NCBI RefSeq assembly: GCF_009914755.1
Contig: NC_060928.1
Strand: one strand, 5' to 3'
Source: the human T2T-CHM13v2.0 reference genome, Homo sapiens
Length of the DNA: 64,000 bases
The notes beneath the pieces are model-generated. The model ran no database searches. It was not told the DNA's origin and saw nothing but the letters and a program-made list of their open reading frames with translations. Each line of letters opens with the position of its first letter. Positions within the stretch are counted from its first letter, which is position 1. Positions 3,266-59,298 of this stretch are shown here, piece by piece. Made by a program: the position numbers and the translations under genes.

Positions 3266-4344
3266 ATCTATCTACTCTCTTAAATCCATCATGATTCAGG
3301 CCAGTGTCTAACTTGAATCTCACCTCTTTCCAAGTGGATATCTTTGACTCCTCCAGGCTACCATGATTTTCCTCTCAGACAAATGTCTTCACCAAACAAT
3401 CAGGTATCAATCTTAGTTTTTCTCTTATAACGTTTTCTGTTTTTTCTCTTGTGTGCCAAAGAGTCACTGTATTATCTCATCACTCTGCCCCCACCAAGAT
3501 AATGTTCCACTCTAACGTCTCATTTAGCCCACAGGAAAAAATAAATTTTGAACGTCTACATAAAATTAATCATATCTATTTTGAAACCTAACTCAGACAT
3601 TTTGTTCTGTCTCAGTGGAATCTGTCAAAACAAAAACCAATGAAATAATTGAGTGGTATTAAGGGGGAAAGTAGCTGGCAAGGTTAAATGGTACTAATCC
3701 ACCCTCTATACATTTTAAGCCTTTTTGTCTGGGAAAATCTGCCTTTTCTACTGGACTGTAAGCTTCCTGAGGTCAGCATCCATATCCTGCATCCCTCCTA
3801 AGCCCTCACTGACCACCAACAATTGCTAGTTCTTGGTTATAGATGACTGTCAATTACATGCTTGATGGATCCTTTAAAAAAGGTAACCAGCTAACCATTT
3901 CTTCTAATTGATGGGTATTTTGCAATCCTTGCCTGCCTCGTCCTCTTCCCCTAATTTCTCCTTGATTACTGCCAGGGAAAATTCCTCCATCCCAACCCCA
4001 GGGAGTCTGTTTCATTTCCTAATTACTTTCCCTGCCGAGAACTTTCTTGTCTTGCTGTATCTAACCCAAATTCCCCCTTCTGTAGCTTCAGGCCATTGCA
4101 CCTTAGTCTTAATCCTCTGGAAGGAAGAGTAATTCCCTTGATTAATTTATATTGTAATCTCAAAGCTGTTTATACATCACAATTTCTGCTTTCCCTGGAG
4201 TCTCTTGTTGCTAGATTAGAGGAATAAGATTTCTTTTTTCATTTTTCCTCTATACCTAATTTTTTTGGCTTACAGACCTCTCAGATCTTTCTAGGTGCTG
4301 CAGTTAGATATCTTTCTTTCCAGGCTGATGTATCAGAATTGCTT

Positions 4345-5071: not shown

Positions 5072-5458
5072 TGTTATGGACTGAACTGTGTCTTTCAAAA
5101 ATTCTTATGTTGAAGCCCTAGCAGTGAGTGTGATTGTTTTTGGAGATAGGGCTTTTAGGAGGTAGTAAAGGATAAATGAAGCCATAAGGTAAAGTCCTAA
5201 TCCTATAGGACTGGTGACTTTATAAGAAGAGGAAGAGAGAGTGATCTTCATGCGCACACACAGAGGGCCAGGCCACGTGAGGACACAGAGAGCAGGTGGC
5301 CATCTAAAACCCGAGGAGAGAGCCCTCACCAGATAGTGACCCTGCTGACACTTTGATGTGGTACTTCTGGCTTCCTGAACTGTGGGAAAATGCATTTATG
5401 TTGTTTAAGCCACACACTCCATGGTATTTGGTAATGGAAGTCTGATCAGCCTAATACA
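5072..5458 (+). mobile_element. MLT1A/B solo LTR
   Basis: TGTTATGGACTGAA start, CTAATACA end, typical internal motifs. Confidence 0.8.
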
Positions 5459-6471
5459 CTGAGTCAGTCACTGATTGCATTATGGTCAATTCATGGTATC
5501 CCACTAGAATCTTCCCTTGTTGTCAGTGAAGGCATAAACTCCATTTGCAGAGGCGTTTTGTCTGCTTCCCGAGACTTCCTTTCCCATAAGGAATGGTGAA
5601 ATGATCTTGAGTGAATCATCAAGGGAAGGACCATCTCTCAAGATGAGTCTTCGCATGTGGTGCAGCCCTGCAGGGAATCTTCAGCCTTCCTACCCCATGG
5701 GGAGATTCTCCCTTCCTTTTCAGTGTTGGGAAATCAGGGTATTTTTGTTGTTTATTTTTTTATTGATTTTAAAGGAGCCAGTGAGTTCTTTAAAAACACT
5801 TCAGTTCTCTCATCTTCAAGGTAACAATGAAGTCACTTACCTATTACTTAGGCAGGATAGTAGAAGTGAATGAGCATTGTACTAGCTGTGATTCTTTAGC
5901 CGAGATGCTTAACCCTTCTAAGCCTGTTTTCTTTTTCTGTAAGATGAGTTCTGTTAGACCAGATGACAGGTTGGAAAGAAAATGCCTATCTAGACAGGTA
6001 TCAAGGGTGACTGCAGAAACTGGAGCTTACCTCCCCAAGGGGAGCCACTGCTCACCTCCTGTCAGTTGGTGACCTGTGGAATGCACACACTTGGGATTGC
6101 CAGATTTCAGATTTTTCAAAACAAAGTTAGGGATCAGATTTCTTTGCGACATTCCTTGTTTTTTAAATATGGGAAACAGAATTACATTTTATGAAGACTG
6201 TGAGCAAGATGAAGCTGGATAGTCCAAGCAGAAGACCTAGGATGTTACTGCTGGGTGAATGGGGTAAAGCAGGGCTTTAAGACGTGCACATGAATTCTCC
6301 CTTGTTGACAGGTGGGATTGTGAATGAGCTCTCAGGTGATGCAATGCTGCTACTTAGAGTAGCAAGGCAGCTAGATGATCTCTGGAGTAGGTTTCCTTCA
6401 CCTCTAACAGCTGGCGATGATATTGGAATTCTTAAACTTCATAAGACTAACCTACATTGGACATGCATCTT

Positions 6472-8226
6472 TTTTTTTTATTTTTATTGATCATTCTTGG
6501 GTGTTTCTCACAGAGGGGGATTTGGCAGGGTCATAGGACAATAGTGGAGGGACGGTCAGCAGATAAACAAGTGAACAAAGGTCTCTGGTTTTCCTAGGCA
6601 GAGGACCCTGAGGCCTTCCGCAGTGTTTGTGTCCCTGGGTACTTGAGATTAGGGAGTGGTGATGACTCTTAACGAGCATGCTGCCTTCAAGCATCTGTTT
6701 AACAAAGCACATCTTGCACCGCCCTTAATCCATTTAACCCTGAGTGGACACAGCACATGTTTCAGAGAGCACAGGGTTGGGGGGTAAGGTCACAGATCAA
6801 CAGGATCCCAAGGCAGAAGAATTTTTCTTAGTACAGAACAAAATGAAAAGTCTCCCATGTCTACTTCTTTCCACACAGACACGGCAACCATCCGATTTCT
6901 CAATCTTTTCCCTACCTTTCCCCCCTTTCTATTCCACAAAACCACCATTGTCATCATGGCCCGTTCTCAATGAGCTGTTGGGCACACCTCCCAGACGGAT
7001 GGGGCGGCTGGCCAGGCGGGGGGCTGACCCCCCCCACCTCCCTCCTGGACGGGGCGGCTGGCCGGGCGGGGGGCTGACCCCCCCACCTCCCTCCCGGACG
7101 GGGCGGCTGGCCGGGCAGAGGGGCTCCTCACTTCCCAGTAGGGGCGGCCGGGCAGAGGCGCCCCTCACCTCCCGGACGAGGCGGCTGGCGGGCTGACCCC
7201 CCCACCTCCCTCCCGGTCGGGGCGGCTGGCCGGTGGCGGGGGCTGACCCCCCCCACCTCCCTCCCGGACGGGGCGGCTGGCCGGGCGGGGGGCTGACCCC
7301 CCCACCTCCCTCCCGGATGGGGCGGCTGCCGGGCGGAGGGGCTCCTCACTTCTCAGACGGGGCGGCTGCCGGGCGGAGGGGCTCCTCACTTCTCAGATGG
7401 GGAGGTTGCCAGGCGGAGGGTCTCCTCCCTTCTCAGATGGGGCGGCTGGGCAGAGGCGCTCCTCACCTCCCAGACGGGGTCGTGGCCGGGCAGAGGCGCT
7501 CCTCACATCCCAGACGGGGCGGCGGGGCAAAGGCGCTCCCCACATCTCAGACGATGGGCGGCCGGGCAGAGACGCTCCTCACTTCCTAGATGGGATGGCG
7601 GCCGGGAAGAGGCGCTCCTCACTTCCTAGATGGGATGGCGGCTGGGCAGAGACGCTCCTCACTTTCCAGACTGGGCAGCCAGGCAGAGGGGCTCCTCACA
7701 TCCCAGACGATGGGCGGCCAGGCAGAGACGCTCCTCACTTCCTAGATGGGGTGGCGGCCGGGCAGAGGCTGCACTCTAGGCACTTTGGGAGGCCAAGGCA
7801 GGCGGCTGGGAGGTGGAGGTTGTAGCGAGCCGAGATCACACCACTGCACTCCAGCCTGGGCACCATTGAGCACTGAGTGAACCAGACACCATCTGCAATC
7901 CCGGCACCTCCGGAGGCCGAGGCTGGCGGATCACTCGCGGTTAGGAGCTGGAGACCAGCCCGGCCAACACAACGAAACCCCATCTCCACCAAAAAAATAC
8001 GAAAACCAGTCAGGCGTGGTGGCGCGCGCCTGCAATCGCAGGCACTCGGCAGGCTGAGGCAGGAGAATCAGGCAGGGAGGTTGCAGTGAGCCGAGATGGC
8101 AGCAGTACAGTCCAGCTTCGGCTCGGCATCAGAGGGAGACCGTGGAAAGAGAGGGAGAGGGAGACTGGGGAGAGGGAGACCATGGGGAGAGGGAGAGGGA
8201 GAGGGAGAGGGAGAGGGAGAGGGAGA
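6472..8226 (-). mobile_element. Full-length SVA retrotransposon (SVA_D-like)
   Basis: On minus strand: (CCCTCT)n hexamer about 8148-8226, Alu-like about 7770-8140, GC-rich VNTR about 6985-7770, SINE-R about 6485-6985, AATAAA plus short poly(A); perfect 12-bp TSD GACATGCATCTT at 6460-6471 and 8227-8238; TT/AAGA L1-endonuclease-type site. Confidence 0.97.
6985..7770 (-). repeat. SVA VNTR, CpG-rich with G-quadruplex potential
   Basis: Tandem 35-50 bp units such as 'cccccccacctccctcccggacggggcggctggccgggcgggggg'. Confidence 0.95.
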
Positions 8227-8594
8227 GACATGCATCTTAAAGTCTGTTCTTCACCCACCTAGACCTGCATTCCTCTTGTCTCTGTCCCTCTGTGTCACAC
8301 CTCTATCACACTAACATCCTGAATTCCATTTGACCTTAAAGTAATTATAGTCTCTTTGGGTCATTTTGGATGCTTGGCATTGCTGGATATTACAGATGAC
8401 ATATATGATATAGAGGCATCCCAGGTTTTTCCAGGATGATTGCATGGGAGCTATCATAGGATGATATGAGAAGAGCAGAGATTGCAAAATGGGAAAACTG
8501 AACATAGAATAAGAAATGATGGTCACAATTTCAGACTCAGGTTTTAGGTTTTTCCTGATAAGACCCTCATAAATTAGATTGTTCTGGTGATAGG

Positions 8595-52187: not shown

Positions 52188-54444
52188 AATCCGTGTCTCC
52201 AGGCCAGCGACTGATCCCACTAACCCACACTGGTAACTTATAGCTATTAGTAATTTATATTCCACAACCAGCATAAACATGCTGGATGGATTCACTTGAA
52301 GTTGTCAACTCTCCTTTTCTTCCAAGATGACTCAGAGACTTGCAAACTGAATACTTGTATAAGATGCATCTCTGTCCTCTTTGGCACCTTGGCATACTGG
52401 GTCACAATGTAATAATTACTTTCATGGTCATCCAGGAACAGACAAATCCCTTCTTTCCTCATGCCTTCATTGTCTTGCCTGAGAAGCAAGAGGGCTGGAG
52501 TTTGAGAGATGATCTCCCAGCTCTCATATGCGTGGGAACGTGAAAGGCAGGCATGGTCCATTGGAAAAGAAAAAAAAAAACCTGTTTGGATCAATAAAAA
52601 GGGACAGGCACAGGAAAACAGTCAGAGCTTGATAGATGAGGGAACATGTCGTTATGTAGGTGGGGAATAAGAGGAAGACAAGGGTGTATAGAGGAAATGG
52701 GAGAGATCTGTGGTTCTTGGGGACTTTATTTAGAAAATTCTTCACAATTCTCAGAAAGCTTAAATAGTTTTTGAAGAAATAGGAGTGAAATTCTTTGGCT
52801 AGAAAGTGGACAGGAGACCACTGGGTCTGTGTGCCTGTGTTTGTGAGAGTGTGAAAGTAGATGGATAAAATTTGCAAGCAGGAATGAGTCAGACAGCCAG
52901 CTTCTGGTACCCTTGCTATAACTATCCAGAAGCATGAGTCCATTCTGGTTTTAGGAGTCAGGAATATAAATGGAATTTGTATTGCAATCCAAGGGTGGGT
53001 GTGAGAACTGGTGAGAATATAATAGATTACTTGTGTTTATGAGGTCTGATATGAGTAGTTCAAGCTGTAAAAGCAAGATATGAGTGAGTCTCATTTTCTT
53101 TGGTTCTTCCAGTTGCCCCTAGAGAGAAAAAGTGGTGACTGGGTATACTCAATCCAATAAATAAATAAACACATACACATTTTGCAATGATTGCTTTCTG
53201 CCGATGTTAAATATACCTCCCAAGTTGGGAAAATGGCTTATATGTTCTACTGTCCCTCCTGCTTTCTGTCTCCCCAGCCCCTCTCTTCCTTCAAGGCTGA
53301 AGGCTTCCATAGTCAGTTGAGACTCTGCTTCACACATTATAATGAAGGCGCTTGCTCTCTAAATGACTCTCTAGTCCTGATTGTGCTAAATAGGGTTTCT
53401 GTGGTTTCAGATGAGGACCATTTTTTGTTTAAATGCTGATGGCCTCCCAGACATTGTAGAATCAGTGGGGTGCTGAGGAGTGAGGGAGAGGAAGCTTCTT
53501 TGCCAGTCTACAAAGAATTGGGGTAGGAAGCAGTGAAAAGAACCCCCTGAGTTTCTAAAACCTCTCAACTGGAGTGGAAGAGGAGGGGTGTCCTTTGTAA
53601 ATTATCCAAACACATTTCCATAAAAGTTGAGCATTTGTACTAAAATGGGATCTTGGCTTCATTTTCCCTGCAAATGGCCAGGGAGAAGGAAGCACTCTCT
53701 CATTGGGTGCAGAGAAGGAAAAATATGGCACCCTGCCTAGAATGGAGATTTTATGTTTTACAGAAATGACTTAGGGAGGACATCCTGCAAGAAGCTGTTG
53801 ATCAGTGAAATGTGTATTTGCTCAAAACACACTTTCCCAGCTGAGCCCCACCCCTTCGTTCCAAGTCTTCCTGGCTGGGTCCTGCACATTTGGCTCCCCC
53901 ATAACCTTGTTTAGGACTGTTTCTGTTGAGGATCACACTGTGCAGAGTTTCAAAGTCATTCTGCTAATGTGAGTGCTTCTCCTATTTTATGCATCAGAAG
54001 GCATTCAAAATCTGTCCACAGTTGAGAGCATCAGAAAAACAAAACAAAACAAAAAACAGGTGTTTATAAAAGCTAACTTACTATATGCCAGACCAATTCT
54101 AAGTGCTTTACAAATATTAACTCATTTAATACTCACAACAAACAGTTGTTGCACTTATTATTGCCCATTTAAAGAAGACTTAGGCATAAACATGTTAGTT
54201 TGCCCAAGGTCACAAAGCTCACGAGTGATGGAGCCCGTATTTCATTCCGAGCTGTCTCACAGCACAGCTCACACTTTAAAGCACAATACTGTAATAAAAA
54301 TAATACCTGCTTCATGGGGTTGTTCTGAAGATCAAATGAGATTATCAATAAAGAAAAGCTGTAATTATCCAATGTGGGAGAAGCAGAAATATTTGGGCTG
54401 TGTTTCTGTTAGATGCTTCTGATAGAAAAATCACAATTGCCAGG

Positions 54445-54650
54445 ATCCATCCTTCCTTCGTTCCTTCGTTCCTTCCTTCCTTCCTTCGTTCCTTCCTTCC
54501 TTCCTTCCTTCCTTCCCTTCCTTCCATTTCCATTTTCCATTGGCTGCCACAGGTGACTGGATACTTGATCTAACTGAGAAGAATTTTGAAATGTGGAAGG
54601 GAGGAAGGAAGGAACAAAGAAGGAAGGAAGTGAGGGAGGGAAGGAAATGG
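54445..54650. repeat. Opposed (TTCC)n and (GGAA)n tracts
   Basis: Pyrimidine tract about 54445-54540 and purine tract about 54590-54648. Confidence 0.9.
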
Positions 54651-55194
54651 CTCTTTTCTTTCCTGTTTCACTTCCCATTCCCTCACTTCTGTGTCCTGAA
54701 CTCACACTTCCAAATCACTTCCCGTCCATGAACCACTGTCACCATCTGCTTTCAGAAGGACCCAGCCTGAGATTCTCTCTCTCTTCCTCCTGCCCTTCCT
54801 TTCTTTCTTTTTTCCCTTAGCCTTTCCTTTTTTTTGAAGTGATATTAACTTTTTTCTTAGATTAGCGGATATTTTGATCTTATTTGAATCATCTGACTGG
54901 AAGACCTAGTTCAAATACAGCAGATTTGGGTAGGTAAAATGTCAGCACTTCTTACCACTCTATCCCAGTGTCCAACCCAGTTCTGGAACATGGCTAGTGT
55001 TCAGTAAATGTCTATCCAAAGATTTTGGAAAGTGTGGGTTAACCATTATTGCCCAATCTACCAAAAACACAAGTGTAAAATGTATTTTTACATTAGCAAA
55101 GTTGGAAAGTTATATTTTCTTTTTCCTTGTCTTTCCCAGAAAAATCATTAACTTAGGTCTGCTGTTTTCTGTATTTCACTTCACATGTGGAATT

Positions 55195-55802
55195 TCAATC
55201 GTTCAAGAAGACAGGAAGGGGTGGAGAAACACTAAATATATATGTACTTACACACACACATATATATATACACATGTATATGTGAGAGTGTGAAAGTAGA
55301 TGGGTAATAGCACTGAAAAAAGGAAAAGGCTCAGGAAGGAAGGAAGGGTAGGAGGAAAAGAGAGAGAATCTTAACCTGGGTCCTTCTGAAAGGAGACTGT
55401 GACAATGGTTCATGGATGGGAAGTTTATTTGGAAGTGTGAGTTCAGGACACAGAAGTGAGGGAAGGGGAAGTGAAACAGGAAAGAAAATACACACACACA
55501 CGCACACACATATGTATGTGTATATATGTATACATATATACATATGGGTGGGTCAGTCAGCTATTGCTGTGTAAAAAACCTTAAAAATATCAGTGGCATA
55601 TAGCATACAAATTTATTTTTCATTTATGAGTCTTAAGTGATATGTGTCACACTAATGTGTATGTATATATATATACACATATATGTGTGTATATATGTAT
55701 ACATACATATACTTATATACATACATATATGTACATATATACACACACACGTGTGTGTGTGTGTGTGTTTCTCCACCCTTTCCTGTCTCCTTGAACTATT
55801 GA
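55195..55802. repeat. Composite cassette: 38-bp inverted ends, three copied local segments, (TA)n/(CA)n filler
   Basis: Base-by-base matches to 52842-52868, 54654-54847 (inverted) and 57341-57451. Confidence 0.95.
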
Positions 55803-56399
55803 GATGATAGGAAAAAGCTTTAGGCATGCCAAAATGGAGATATATTTGTGCCTTTCAAGTGACAGTTTTGAGGATCACTGGCCCACTGATGCTTCTATCT
55901 CTTTAAATTCTTGATTCAGACCAACTACCTAGAATGAACCTTTTCCAGGAGAGACTGTTACCCAGTGGACGAGGAGATGGTAAGGCATAAGTAGGTGCAG
56001 CTGGCATGGTCTGACAAGCGTGTACCGTAAAATGAAATCATCGCACCAGAAGATTCGAGGTGATAAAGTAAAATATGGAAATTTGAACAAAAAAGCAAAG
56101 CAATTCATTGGAGAATTAAAGGCAAGACTAAAAGTCTGGAATAAAGGGGTAATCGTGCTTCATTTTATGGCAGTGGTTTGTGGTTTTATTGATTGGTTGA
56201 CTGATTTGTCATTTGTTGAATGCCTATGTGACAGATTCCCTAACAAGGGCATCTGTGTGTGTTATCTTGATGAACTGTAATTGAGAACTGTAGTCTTGAT
56301 TCCTTAAGTGTATAGACTTGTCTTGTTTACTTTTAATTTTTTTCACCTCCAACATAACCAAGTAGTGATTATAAGGCATCCCTGTAAACCTTTTAAGCT

Positions 56400-57322: not shown

Positions 57323-57515
57323 CTAAAAGAAGGGAAGGCTGTGGGTCAGTCAGCTATTGCTGTGTAACAAACCTTAAAAATATCAGTGGCATATAGCATG
57401 CAAATTTATTTTTCATTCATGAGTCTTAAGTGATATGTGTCACACTAATGTTGAGTTTTATCAGTGAATTAATGGTCATCTCAGTAGTGACACCTGCTGG
57501 TCAGGAAGTAAACTC

Positions 57516-58776: not shown

Positions 58777-59298
58777 TTTTTACAACTTGTACATATTGTT
58801 TTACAATCTTGTACATTGTACAACAATGTACAAGAAGTTTTTAGTTGCCTACCTAACCATCCTATGCTCTTTCTTGTTAATTAGAACCAATTTTGTTCAG
58901 ACCTATCAACTTCAAGTCCAAGGATTTTATAAGAGATGAGTCCAGCCCTAGTCCTAGGTATGAGTCTTGATTAGTTTCAACCAACTATGATGATTATGAA
59001 TAGATTTTCATTAAAGAAAATTGAGAACTCCAAAAAAGTAGAAAACATACTGATATTTCACTATGCAAATGCAACCACTTTCCATATTTTCTTGAAATTC
59101 CTTCCAGTCTTTTTTCTATGCACCAGTGAATTGTTTTAGCATATAGTATTCATAACCTCATATGCTATCATACCCTACCTATTTACATATAATACATTGT
59201 GCTCCTTTTTCTAAGTCTAATTCATTCTAATTTATTTTTATTGGCTGCATATTTCTTTAAGAAATTATTTCTCAACTAACATAAAGATGTTACTGTTT

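What the first reader, a model, noticed from the sequence alone, without database searches (positions are those of the whole stretch)
55195..55802. Patchwork cassette: four local sequence copies stitched together with (TA)n/(CA)n filler
Seen directly, in order. A 55195-55232 is the reverse complement of 55765-55802 (38 bp, 3 mismatches). TA/CA filler. B 55281-55307 is a direct copy of 52842-52868 (26/27, donor 2.4 kb upstream). C 55305-55488 is an inverted copy of 54654-54847 (about a dozen substitutions in the best 145 bp, plus indels) and overlaps B by the microhomology TAA. CA/TA filler. D 55548-55658 is a direct copy of 57341-57451 (108/111, donor 1.8 kb downstream). About 105 bp of filler, then the second inverted end. 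Donors lie on both sides and both strands within about 3 kb. There is no TSD, poly(A) or transposase, so it only resembles a Pack-MITE. Inference: a germline break-repair scar in which a polymerase alternated template switching with slippage or snap-back synthesis of alternating purine-pyrimidine filler (Pol theta TMEJ or MMBIR/FoSTeS-like). D is much closer to its donor than C, hinting the site broke and captured sequence more than once.
Basis: partly seen in the sequence, partly recalled or inferred. Interest (0 to 1): 0.85.

Follow-up and report, generated by a model that had tools for sequence, protein, structure and literature searches.

The report
Local DNA patchwork inside a TA/CA microsatellite
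A 610-base stretch of human chromosome 4 is a TA/CA dinucleotide repeat interrupted by near-copies of four nearby sequences, most likely an old and harmless scar of DNA copying that jumped between nearby templates.

Summary
All four repeat pairs are real: A/A' 35/38 (37/41 extended), B 26/27, C 166 matches with 16 substitutions and 4 gaps, D 108/111. In the 3.1-Gb assembly each segment matches only its local partner. The 64-kb window has 16 local non-simple duplicate pairs. Twelve touch masked repeats; the other four are exactly these pairs, and all converge on the cassette.

Best reading (0.6): a structure-prone TA/CA array took up pieces copied from -2.4 kb to +1.8 kb by microhomology-primed serial template switching of the FoSTeS/MMBIR type.

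- Pol theta as the main polymerase. Pieces of 27-185 nt copied from 0.5-2.4 kb away are far outside its published range.
- Filler synthesised de novo. The filler resembles ordinary genomic TA/CA arrays.
- More than one capture. Divergence does not differ significantly among segments (p=0.15) and varies more within C (p=0.013).

A dispersed terminal-inverted-repeat (TIR) family is refuted. No outgroup or population data were available, so polarity, dating and event number remain open. I file it as a new member of a known kind, of modest interest.

The parts
55192..55232 (+). A: left arm of the bracketing inverted repeat. It ends in CAC directly against filler 1.
   Evidence: I11, 41 nt, 90%; 35/38; the only other genomic match is A'
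55233..55280 (.). Filler 1: 48-nt TA/CA tract
   Evidence: (D1). No 11-mer from the fillers matched unique DNA within 3 kb, except one chance-level hit from filler 3.
55281..55307 (+). B: direct copy of 52842-52868 (26/27). It begins with TGTG, which is shared with the array motif.
   Evidence: this 26-mer occurs only here and at the donor in 3.1 Gb.
55305..55488 (-). C: inverted copy of 54654-54847. It is joined to B with no filler, through a shared TAA. The left 120 nt are divergent and the right 62 nt nearly identical.
   Evidence: I1 87%, I2 98%; (166 matches, 16 substitutions, 4 gaps)
55489..55547 (.). Filler 2: 59-nt (CA)n then TA/TG tract
   Evidence: its direct similarity to filler 3 was reached by 3 of 300 dinucleotide shuffles
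55548..55658 (+). D: direct copy of 57341-57451 (108/111). It starts with GTG and ends with ATGT, both array-like.
   Evidence: D3
55659..55764 (.). Filler 3: 106-nt TA/TG/CA tract. It contains a quasi-palindrome with a 22-bp stem (55659-55706) and a (CA)5(GT)n palindromic centre abutting A'.
   Evidence: DNA fold -29.5 kcal/mol, z -2.8, 1 of 200 shuffles as good; self-complement 46/50
55765..55805 (-). A': right arm, an inverted copy of A. Its first GTG is continuous with the (GT)n run.
   Evidence: I11
52842..52868 (+). Partner (presumed template) of B, in unmasked unique DNA and preceded by a TG-rich stretch
54654..54847 (+). Partner (presumed template) of C. Its 54654 boundary lies 7 nt from the (GGAA)n array at 54595-54646.
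57341..57451 (+). Partner (presumed template) of D. Positions 57342-57413 resemble an old interspersed repeat (about 78-79% to chr22 and chr18 loci).

Best explanation
The site was an ordinary complex TA/CA/TG microsatellite of roughly 200 nt that can fold into hairpins or a cruciform. During germline replication, or during repair of a break in that array, the growing 3' end came off its template. It ended in TG/TA repeat units. It re-annealed through 3-4 nt of TG-type microhomology to exposed DNA within about 2.4 kb, copied a short stretch, came off again and eventually returned to the array.

This is serial template switching of the FoSTeS/MMBIR type. It left four templated pieces in the array: B plus C (joined to each other, so made in one event), D, and an inverted copy of the flank (A').

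What is shown: the copies, their uniqueness in the genome, their convergence on one site, the short overlaps at the junctions, and the fold potential of the array. What is inferred: that the cassette copies are the derived ones, that the array pre-existed, which polymerase or pathway acted, and how many events there were (one to three). The scar lies in an intron of a predicted lncRNA and shows no sign of function.
For: 1. Four pairs are confirmed and each is genome-unique.

2. Of 16 local (within 3 kb) non-simple duplicate pairs in the 64-kb window, 12 have at least one member in a stretch NCBI masks as repeat. The other 4 are these pairs. Three separate outside partners (B, C, D) and the internal A/A' pair all converge on one 614-nt stretch. 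That is most simply read as one recipient fed by several templates.

3. In the cassette every copy ends abruptly against array sequence or against another copy, while the partners sit in continuous unique DNA.

4. Junction overlaps read: TGTG (filler 1 to B), TAA (B to C), GTG (filler 2 to D), ATGT (D to filler 3), GTG (filler 3 to A'), and only 1-2 nt at C to filler 2. That is 5 of 6 internal junctions with 3-4 nt.

5. C precedes A' in the cassette, while the C partner precedes A on the left. One inverted duplication of a contiguous block would therefore give the opposite order, so separate switches are needed (coordinates).

6. Filler 3 folds far better than its shuffles. TA repeats are documented break and cruciform sites repaired by microhomology pathways (PMC13645644, passages read).

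7. The fillers have no nearby unique template: one 11-mer hit, about 0.75 expected by my estimate. They look like common genomic TA/CA arrays.

8. Germline templated insertions are documented. They include multi-templated ones (PMC8421209, passages) and occur at 2.2% to about 5% of germline SV breakpoints (PMC3638133, passages).

9. The C partner ends 7 nt from a (GGAA)n array. This fits a polymerase that stalled there and switched back, which is an inference.
Against: - No outgroup or population sequence could be examined, so neither the empty allele nor the polarity of copying is shown.
- The microhomologies are short, made of the array's own motif, and read through 3-9% later divergence, so their excess over chance is not established.
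- In 20 other TA/CA arrays of the same kind, 0 of 20 carried a multi-donor patchwork or a bracketing inverted repeat. Such arrays therefore do not commonly do this, and the array may not be the cause.
- Only filler 2 vs filler 3 shows similarity beyond dinucleotide shuffles (3 of 300 reach it). The other five comparisons do not. Common descent of the three tracts from one array is therefore weakly supported.
- The ts:tv ratio of 15:9 looks like ordinary decay and gives no signature of an error-prone polymerase.
- The steep divergence step inside C is not explained by the model without adding gene conversion or error-prone synthesis.
Confidence: 0.6

Rival explanations
1. One double-strand break in unique DNA was repaired by Pol theta end joining (or MMBIR). 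The polymerase alternated template switching with slippage or snap-back, and so itself synthesised the TA/CA filler between the copied pieces.
For: - The fillers sit exactly between templated pieces, and filler 3 ends in a (CA)5(GT)n palindromic centre of the kind snap-back synthesis could make.
- A' is an inverted copy of the same-side flank, which is the geometry of snap-back.
- POLQ-templated synthesis is error-prone, about 1 error in 30 bp (PMC5068794). That could account for part of the divergence in C.
- 0 of 20 ordinary TA/CA arrays show such a patchwork.
Against: - Published POLQ inserts average about 10 bp and mostly come from within 20 bp of the break. Only 2-3% come from more than 1 kb away (PMC5068794). 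Here the pieces are 27-185 nt from 0.5-2.4 kb.
- Filler tracts of 48-106 nt are indistinguishable in kind from arrays found all over the genome.
- A' lies 532 nt from A, not next to it as snap-back would leave it.
Confidence: 0.15
2. Break repair by homologous-recombination machinery or by RNA. Either the broken end made several short strand invasions (multi-invasion/SDSA) into nearby DNA, or it copied pieces of the local nascent lncRNA transcript by reverse transcription (the class of templated sequence insertions without poly(A); recalled from memory, no paper read).
For: - All partners lie in one intron of LOC105374505 (annotation supplied with the finding).
- The pieces have both orientations and no TSD or poly(A).
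Against: - The junction overlaps are 1-4 nt, far below what homologous invasion normally needs.
- All partners lie within 2.4 kb in a gene spanning about 197 kb, which points to proximity in DNA rather than in RNA.
- Nothing here tests for an RNA intermediate.
Confidence: 0.08
3. Reversed polarity. The cassette, or parts of it, is ancestral, and the three outside sites at 52.8, 54.7 and 57.4 kb received copies from it.
For: Polarity was not tested with outgroups. The similarity of the D partner to an old repeat family (57342-57413) does not extend beyond D's borders, so it gives no direction.
Against: - It needs three separate insertions into three places from one 600-nt source, each leaving no junction filler.
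- The copies in the cassette are the ones bounded by array sequence.
Confidence: 0.05
4. A non-autonomous DNA transposon (MITE or Pack-MITE-like) whose terminal inverted repeats are A and A'.
For: A 37/41 inverted repeat brackets about 530 nt of captured-looking DNA.
Against: - A and A', searched with their flanks, match only themselves and each other in 3.1 Gb.
- There is no direct repeat outside the arms.
- The inner ends of the arms abut dinucleotide repeats.
- The longest ORF is 72 aa.
Confidence: 0.02
5. An assembly artefact in a low-complexity region.
For: TA/CA arrays are hard to sequence. Reads were not available to me.
Against: - The copies are diverged (3-9%) rather than identical, as a mis-join of reads would give.
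- The unique segments are long and ordered.
- The assembly is a finished telomere-to-telomere one, according to the annotation note.
Confidence: 0.02

Closest known systems
Complex templated insertions from serial replicative template switching (FoSTeS / MMBIR; the names and original papers are recalled, and MMBIR-type templated insertions were read in PMC8421209)
   Same: Several short pieces are copied from nearby DNA in both orientations and joined through a few nucleotides of microhomology. The templates are retained and there is no TSD or poly(A). Germline examples, including multi-templated ones, are reported.
   Different: The insertions catalogued there are 10 bp up to read length, inverted, and templated within 100 bp. 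Here the pieces are 27-185 nt from 0.5-2.4 kb, two of the four are direct, and all land in one TA/CA array. No accompanying copy-number change is evident.
Pol theta (TMEJ) templated inserts
   Same: Iterated priming, extension and dissociation, with error-prone copying and occasional snap-back (PMC5068794). TA repeats break and depend on this pathway in ecDNA-bearing cancer cells (PMC13645644).
   Different: The scale is different. Those inserts average about 10 bp and are templated mostly within 20 bp of the break. Here the pieces are up to 185 nt, from kilobases away.
Short-range template switch mutations (four-point model; Walker et al. 2021, PMC7954356)
   Same: A reverse-oriented copy of nearby sequence creates or extends an inverted repeat or hairpin, and the events are associated with AT-rich, structure-prone DNA.
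   Different: That model requires a reverse-oriented template within 100 nt. C and A' have templates about 460-830 nt and 530 nt away, and B and D are direct copies.
Pack-MITE / TIR transposon carrying captured fragments
   Same: Inverted ends bracket a mosaic of fragments of host DNA.
   Different: The ends are unique in the genome, and there is no TSD and no family.

Membership tests
Templated insertion by serial template switching (FoSTeS/MMBIR type) | Inserted pieces are near-identical to sequences retained elsewhere nearby | tested here: met
   Four pairs at 90-97% identity, each unique in the genome
Templated insertion by serial template switching (FoSTeS/MMBIR type) | Two or more pieces from different places, possibly in both orientations, joined in one tract | tested here: met
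   B and C are joined directly through TAA. The orientations are +, -, +, -, and the partners lie at -2.4 kb, -0.5 to -0.8 kb, +1.8 kb and in the flank.
Templated insertion by serial template switching (FoSTeS/MMBIR type) | Microhomology at the junctions | tested here: inconclusive
   5 of 6 internal junctions show 3-4 nt overlaps. These consist of the array's own motif and are read through later divergence. No chance model was run.
Templated insertion by serial template switching (FoSTeS/MMBIR type) | The cassette is derived relative to an ancestral allele without the pieces | not testable with these tools
   No primate or other human assemblies are available here. The genome search states that the genome has no relatives held.
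Pol theta TMEJ templated insert | Short insert templated from the immediate flank of the break | tested here: not met
   Pieces of 27, 184, 111 and 41 nt with templates 0.5-2.4 kb away, against about 10 bp average with 37-44% mapping within 20 bp (PMC5068794)
TIR DNA transposon / MITE | Terminal inverted repeats belonging to a dispersed family | tested here: not met
   Each arm with its flank gave 2 genomic matches, itself and the other arm
TIR DNA transposon / MITE | Target-site duplication flanking the ends | tested here: not met
   Outside the arms the sequence reads ...CACATGTGGA and GATAGGAAAA..., with no direct repeat. The same holds for the two alternative insertion boundaries.
Short-range template switch mutation (four-point model) | Reverse-oriented template within about 100 nt of the mutation | tested here: not met
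   The inverted templates are about 460-830 nt (C) and 532 nt (A') away, and B and D are direct. The criterion comes from PMC7954356.
Retrocopy / L1-mediated insertion | Poly(A) tail and TSD | tested here: not met
   No segment ends in poly(A) that is absent from its partner, and there is no TSD

The most novel reading that the evidence does not exclude
The TA/CA quasi-palindromic array is a long-lived 'sink'. It broke or stalled repeatedly over tens of millions of years, and each time it captured a different piece of neighbouring DNA (B+C, then D, with A' separately). It thereby built a new composite sequence without any transposase. If so, structure-prone microsatellites would be recurrent nucleation points for small-scale sequence shuffling in primate genomes.
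Probability: 0.25. Interest if true: 0.55.

Novelty: new member of a known kind. Interest (0 to 1): 0.35.

Why it matters
This is a clean example, resolved to the base, of a germline multi-template insertion fixed in a finished human assembly. Four templates within 4.6 kb all land in one hairpin-forming TA/CA array. It could serve as a test case for dating and ordering template switches with ape genomes. It could also show whether dinucleotide-repeat 3' ends, which find microhomology easily, favour long-range switching. It does not change what is known about mechanism, and nothing suggests a function.

Tried and rejected
1. Dispersed TIR family. Rejected by the genome-wide searches.

2. One simple inverted duplication of the left flank. 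Rejected because C' and A' are in the wrong order.

3. Direction of copying from the old-repeat context of the D partner. The family similarity covers only 57342-57413, inside D, so it is uninformative.

4. Survey of other TA/CA arrays.
- 20 loci were fetched out of the 38 I had picked.
- 4 of 20 loci had non-array islands of 25 nt or more.
- L019's island is a 70-nt, 95.7% copy of the array's own upstream flank.
- L030's 38-nt island matches a site 1.3 kb upstream at 92%. It looks like an L1 fragment (recognised from memory, untested), so it is not a clean case.
- L012 and L026 islands had no local match.
- 0 of 20 resemble the cassette.

5. A 'three or more donors into one 700-nt sink' criterion. 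In the window it flags only the cassette region. It also flags 6 regions in 4 of the 20 other loci, with pair identities mostly 74-93%. I take these to be transposon paralogues, which was not checked. The criterion is therefore not specific and I draw nothing from it.

6. A first self-BLAST of a 14-kb query lost the known C and D hits. That was a culling or masking artefact, and the comparison was redone in 300-nt chunks.

7. Rfam. There were 44 matches at E up to 1 and none reached a gathering score. Filler 3 scores 56 bits against mir-3149 (cut-off 100), with similar sub-threshold hits on both strands to mir-297, mir-466 and mir-1277. I read these as low-complexity resemblance.

8. Small templated bits inside the fillers. 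There was one 11-mer hit within 3 kb, at the chance level of about 0.75 expected by my estimate.

10. No paper on this locus was sought. The five literature searches were about mechanisms only, so I make no claim that the locus is undescribed.

Full report
**What is there**

The window is human T2T-CHM13 chr4:16,368,001-16,432,000, according to the annotation note.
- A: 55192-55232.
- Filler 1: 48 nt of TA/CA.
- B: 55281-55307, a direct copy of 52842-52868, 26/27.
- C: 55305-55488, an inverted copy of 54654-54847.
- Filler 2: 59 nt.
- D: 55548-55658, a direct copy of 57341-57451, 108/111.
- Filler 3: 106 nt.

A global alignment of C gives 166 matches, 16 substitutions and 4 gap events. B and C share TAA at 55305-55307 with no filler between them.

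**Is it more than chance?**

Yes.
- BLAST E-values against the window run from 4e-7 (B) to 1e-55 (C).
- In the whole 3.1-Gb assembly, A and A', each searched with about 50 nt of its outer flank, gave two matches each: itself and the other arm.
- The 26-nt core of B, with up to two mismatches allowed, has two places, the cassette and the site 2.4 kb upstream. The reversed control pattern has none.
- A BLAST-type search with the B partner region found only itself and missed the 27-nt copy. That negative says nothing.
- C and D match only their local partners, apart from two 78-79% hits of 57342-57413 to chr22 and chr18.
- The other 190 of the 193 matches — all but the query's self-match and the C and D partners — fall, in every listed row, in the TA/CA part of the query, on many chromosomes.

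**Everything converges on the cassette**

I cut the 64-kb window into 300-nt chunks and compared them with the window, keeping non-simple pairs no more than 3 kb apart. This gave 16 pairs. Twelve have at least one member in a stretch NCBI masks as repeat, according to the list supplied with the finding. The other four are exactly A/A', B, C and D.

So the only duplicated unique DNA in the window lies in one 614-nt stretch. Three of its partners lie outside the stretch, at three different places. That is the main reason to take the cassette as the recipient. The second reason is that the cassette copies stop dead against array sequence or against each other, while their partners sit in continuous unique DNA. 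Polarity is still an inference, because no outgroup was available.

**What it is not**

- It is not a transposon. The ends are unique in the genome and there is no flanking direct repeat.
- It is not a retrocopy, because there is no poly(A).
- It is not a single inverted duplication. On the left the order is C partner then A, so an inverted copy of that block would read A' then C'. The cassette reads C' then A'.
- No Rfam family reaches its cut-off. Filler 3 gives sub-threshold hits on both strands to miRNA families that look to be built on TA/TG hairpins (my reading), for example mir-3149 at 56 bits against a cut-off of 100.
- The longest ATG ORF is 72 aa.

**The filler**

- The three tracts total 213 nt.
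- They have no template in unique DNA within 3 kb. There was one 11-mer hit where I estimate about 0.75 by chance.
- They align at 73-87% to TA/CA arrays on many chromosomes.
- Twenty such arrays that I fetched have central blocks of 87 to about 1,130 nt, so 213 nt is an ordinary size.
- Filler 2 and filler 3 resemble each other more than 297 of 300 dinucleotide shuffles do. The other five pairwise comparisons are unremarkable.
- As single-stranded DNA, filler 3 folds at -29.5 kcal/mol with a 22-bp stem and a (CA)5(GT)5 hairpin. The z-score is -2.8, and 1 of 200 shuffles folds as well. Fillers 1 and 2 are not exceptional.

I therefore prefer a pre-existing, hairpin-prone array that was interrupted, over filler made by the repair polymerase. 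The evidence is circumstantial.

**Junctions**

From the flank alignments:
- Filler 1 to B shares TGTG, and a looser 8/10 TG-rich match lies just upstream.
- B to C shares TAA.
- C to filler 2 shares 1-2 nt.
- Filler 2 to D shares GTG.
- D to filler 3 shares ATGT.
- Filler 3 to A' shares GTG, continuous with (GT)n.

This fits a 3' end made of TG/TA units priming at short TG-type homologies. However, the overlaps are short and made of the array's own motif, and I ran no chance model for them.

One more detail: the C partner ends 7 nt from a (GGAA)n array at 54595-54646. A polymerase copying towards that array could have stalled there and switched. This is inference.

**One event or several?**

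- B and C were joined in one event.
- For the rest, substitutions are 4/41 (A), 1/27 (B), 16/182 (C) and 3/111 (D).
- Heterogeneity among the four is not significant: chi-square p=0.16, permutation p=0.15.
- C vs D alone gives p=0.05.
- The strongest contrast is inside C: 15/120 in 55305-55426 against 1/62 in 55427-55488, p=0.013.

The step inside C could reflect gene conversion between the inverted copies, error-prone synthesis, or faster decay of the purine-rich left part. The overall ts:tv ratio of 15:9 looks like ordinary decay. Pooled divergence is 24/361, or 6.6%. From recalled primate divergence figures that would put a single event roughly at the Old World monkey-ape split, and D alone much later. 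This is rough and untested.

**Which pathway?**

- Published Pol theta inserts in C. elegans average about 10 bp. Of these, 37-44% map within 20 bp of the break and 2-3% come from more than 1 kb away (PMC5068794, passages).
- MMBIR-type templated insertions occur in the normal human germline, including multi-templated ones. The tool used there looks for inverted templates within 100 bp (PMC8421209, passages).
- Templated insertions or small rearrangements are seen at 2.2% of germline SV breakpoints, and about 5% by long reads (PMC3638133, passages).
- TA repeats extrude cruciforms, break, and are repaired through microhomology (PMC13645644, passages).
- Short-range template switches in apes are enriched in AT-rich DNA but are defined by a reverse template within 100 nt (PMC7954356, passages).

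Pieces of 27-185 nt from 0.5-2.4 kb, in both orientations, fit replicative serial template switching (FoSTeS/MMBIR; the names are recalled) better than Pol theta end joining. Sequence alone cannot name the polymerase.

**How common is it?**

In 20 other TA/CA arrays:
- 4 had islands of 25 nt or more.
- One island is a 70-nt copy of its own upstream flank (L019).
- One is a 38-nt piece that I recognise from memory as L1-like (L030).
- Two have no local partner.
- 0 of 20 show a multi-donor patchwork or a bracketing inverted repeat.

The sample is small and was chosen by similarity to filler 3. Eighteen further loci could not be fetched. A cruder 'sink' criterion was not specific.

**Verdict**

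The cassette is a templated patchwork produced by template switching at a structure-prone microsatellite. Pol theta as the main polymerase, de novo filler and repeated capture are not supported. I file it as a new member of a known kind, probably neutral, of modest interest. The decisive test is alignment to ape and monkey orthologues, which could not be run here.

Noticed in passing
window 54446-54525 and 54595-54646: A (TCCT)n array of about 20 units and a (GGAA)n array of about 13 units face each other as an inverted pair about 70 nt apart (52 nt, 75% complementary). They lie immediately upstream of the C partner. This may be another fold-back or template-switch product, or an H-DNA-prone site.
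   Followed up: partly
window 55655-55761: Filler 3 gives sub-threshold Rfam hits on both strands to miRNA families that look to be built on TA/TG-repeat hairpins (my reading): mir-3149 at 56 bits vs cut-off 100, and mir-297, mir-466, mir-1277, mir-3688, mir-568. I read this as low-complexity resemblance, not a gene.
   Followed up: no
L019 3900-4161 (G000:C3, about 3.786 Mb): A TA/CA array of about 1.1 kb whose only sizeable island (4092-4161) is a 70-nt, 95.7% direct copy of the array's own upstream flank (3900-3969). This is a local duplication that includes the array edge.
   Followed up: no
L030 4860-5450 (G000:C14, about 65.27 Mb): A TA/TG array that starts at what looks like an Alu 3' end. 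It is broken into several blocks by short islands. One is a 38-nt piece 92% like a site 1.3 kb upstream, which I recognise from memory as L1-like. There is also a 20-nt inverted match at 5230-5249 / 5427-5446.
   Followed up: partly
window 57342-57413: Part of the D partner resembles loci on chr22 and chr18 at 78-79%, so it is probably a fragment of an old interspersed repeat. The family was not identified.
   Followed up: partly
window 7097-7769: Three local direct repeat pairs (42-185 nt, 78-93%) lie inside the masked stretch 6460-8232, which begins inside the RefSeq enhancer feature 6403-7098. It looks like a tandem or VNTR-like structure.
   Followed up: no
window 58807-58835: A 29-nt near-palindrome, 26/29 self-complementary.
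   Followed up: no
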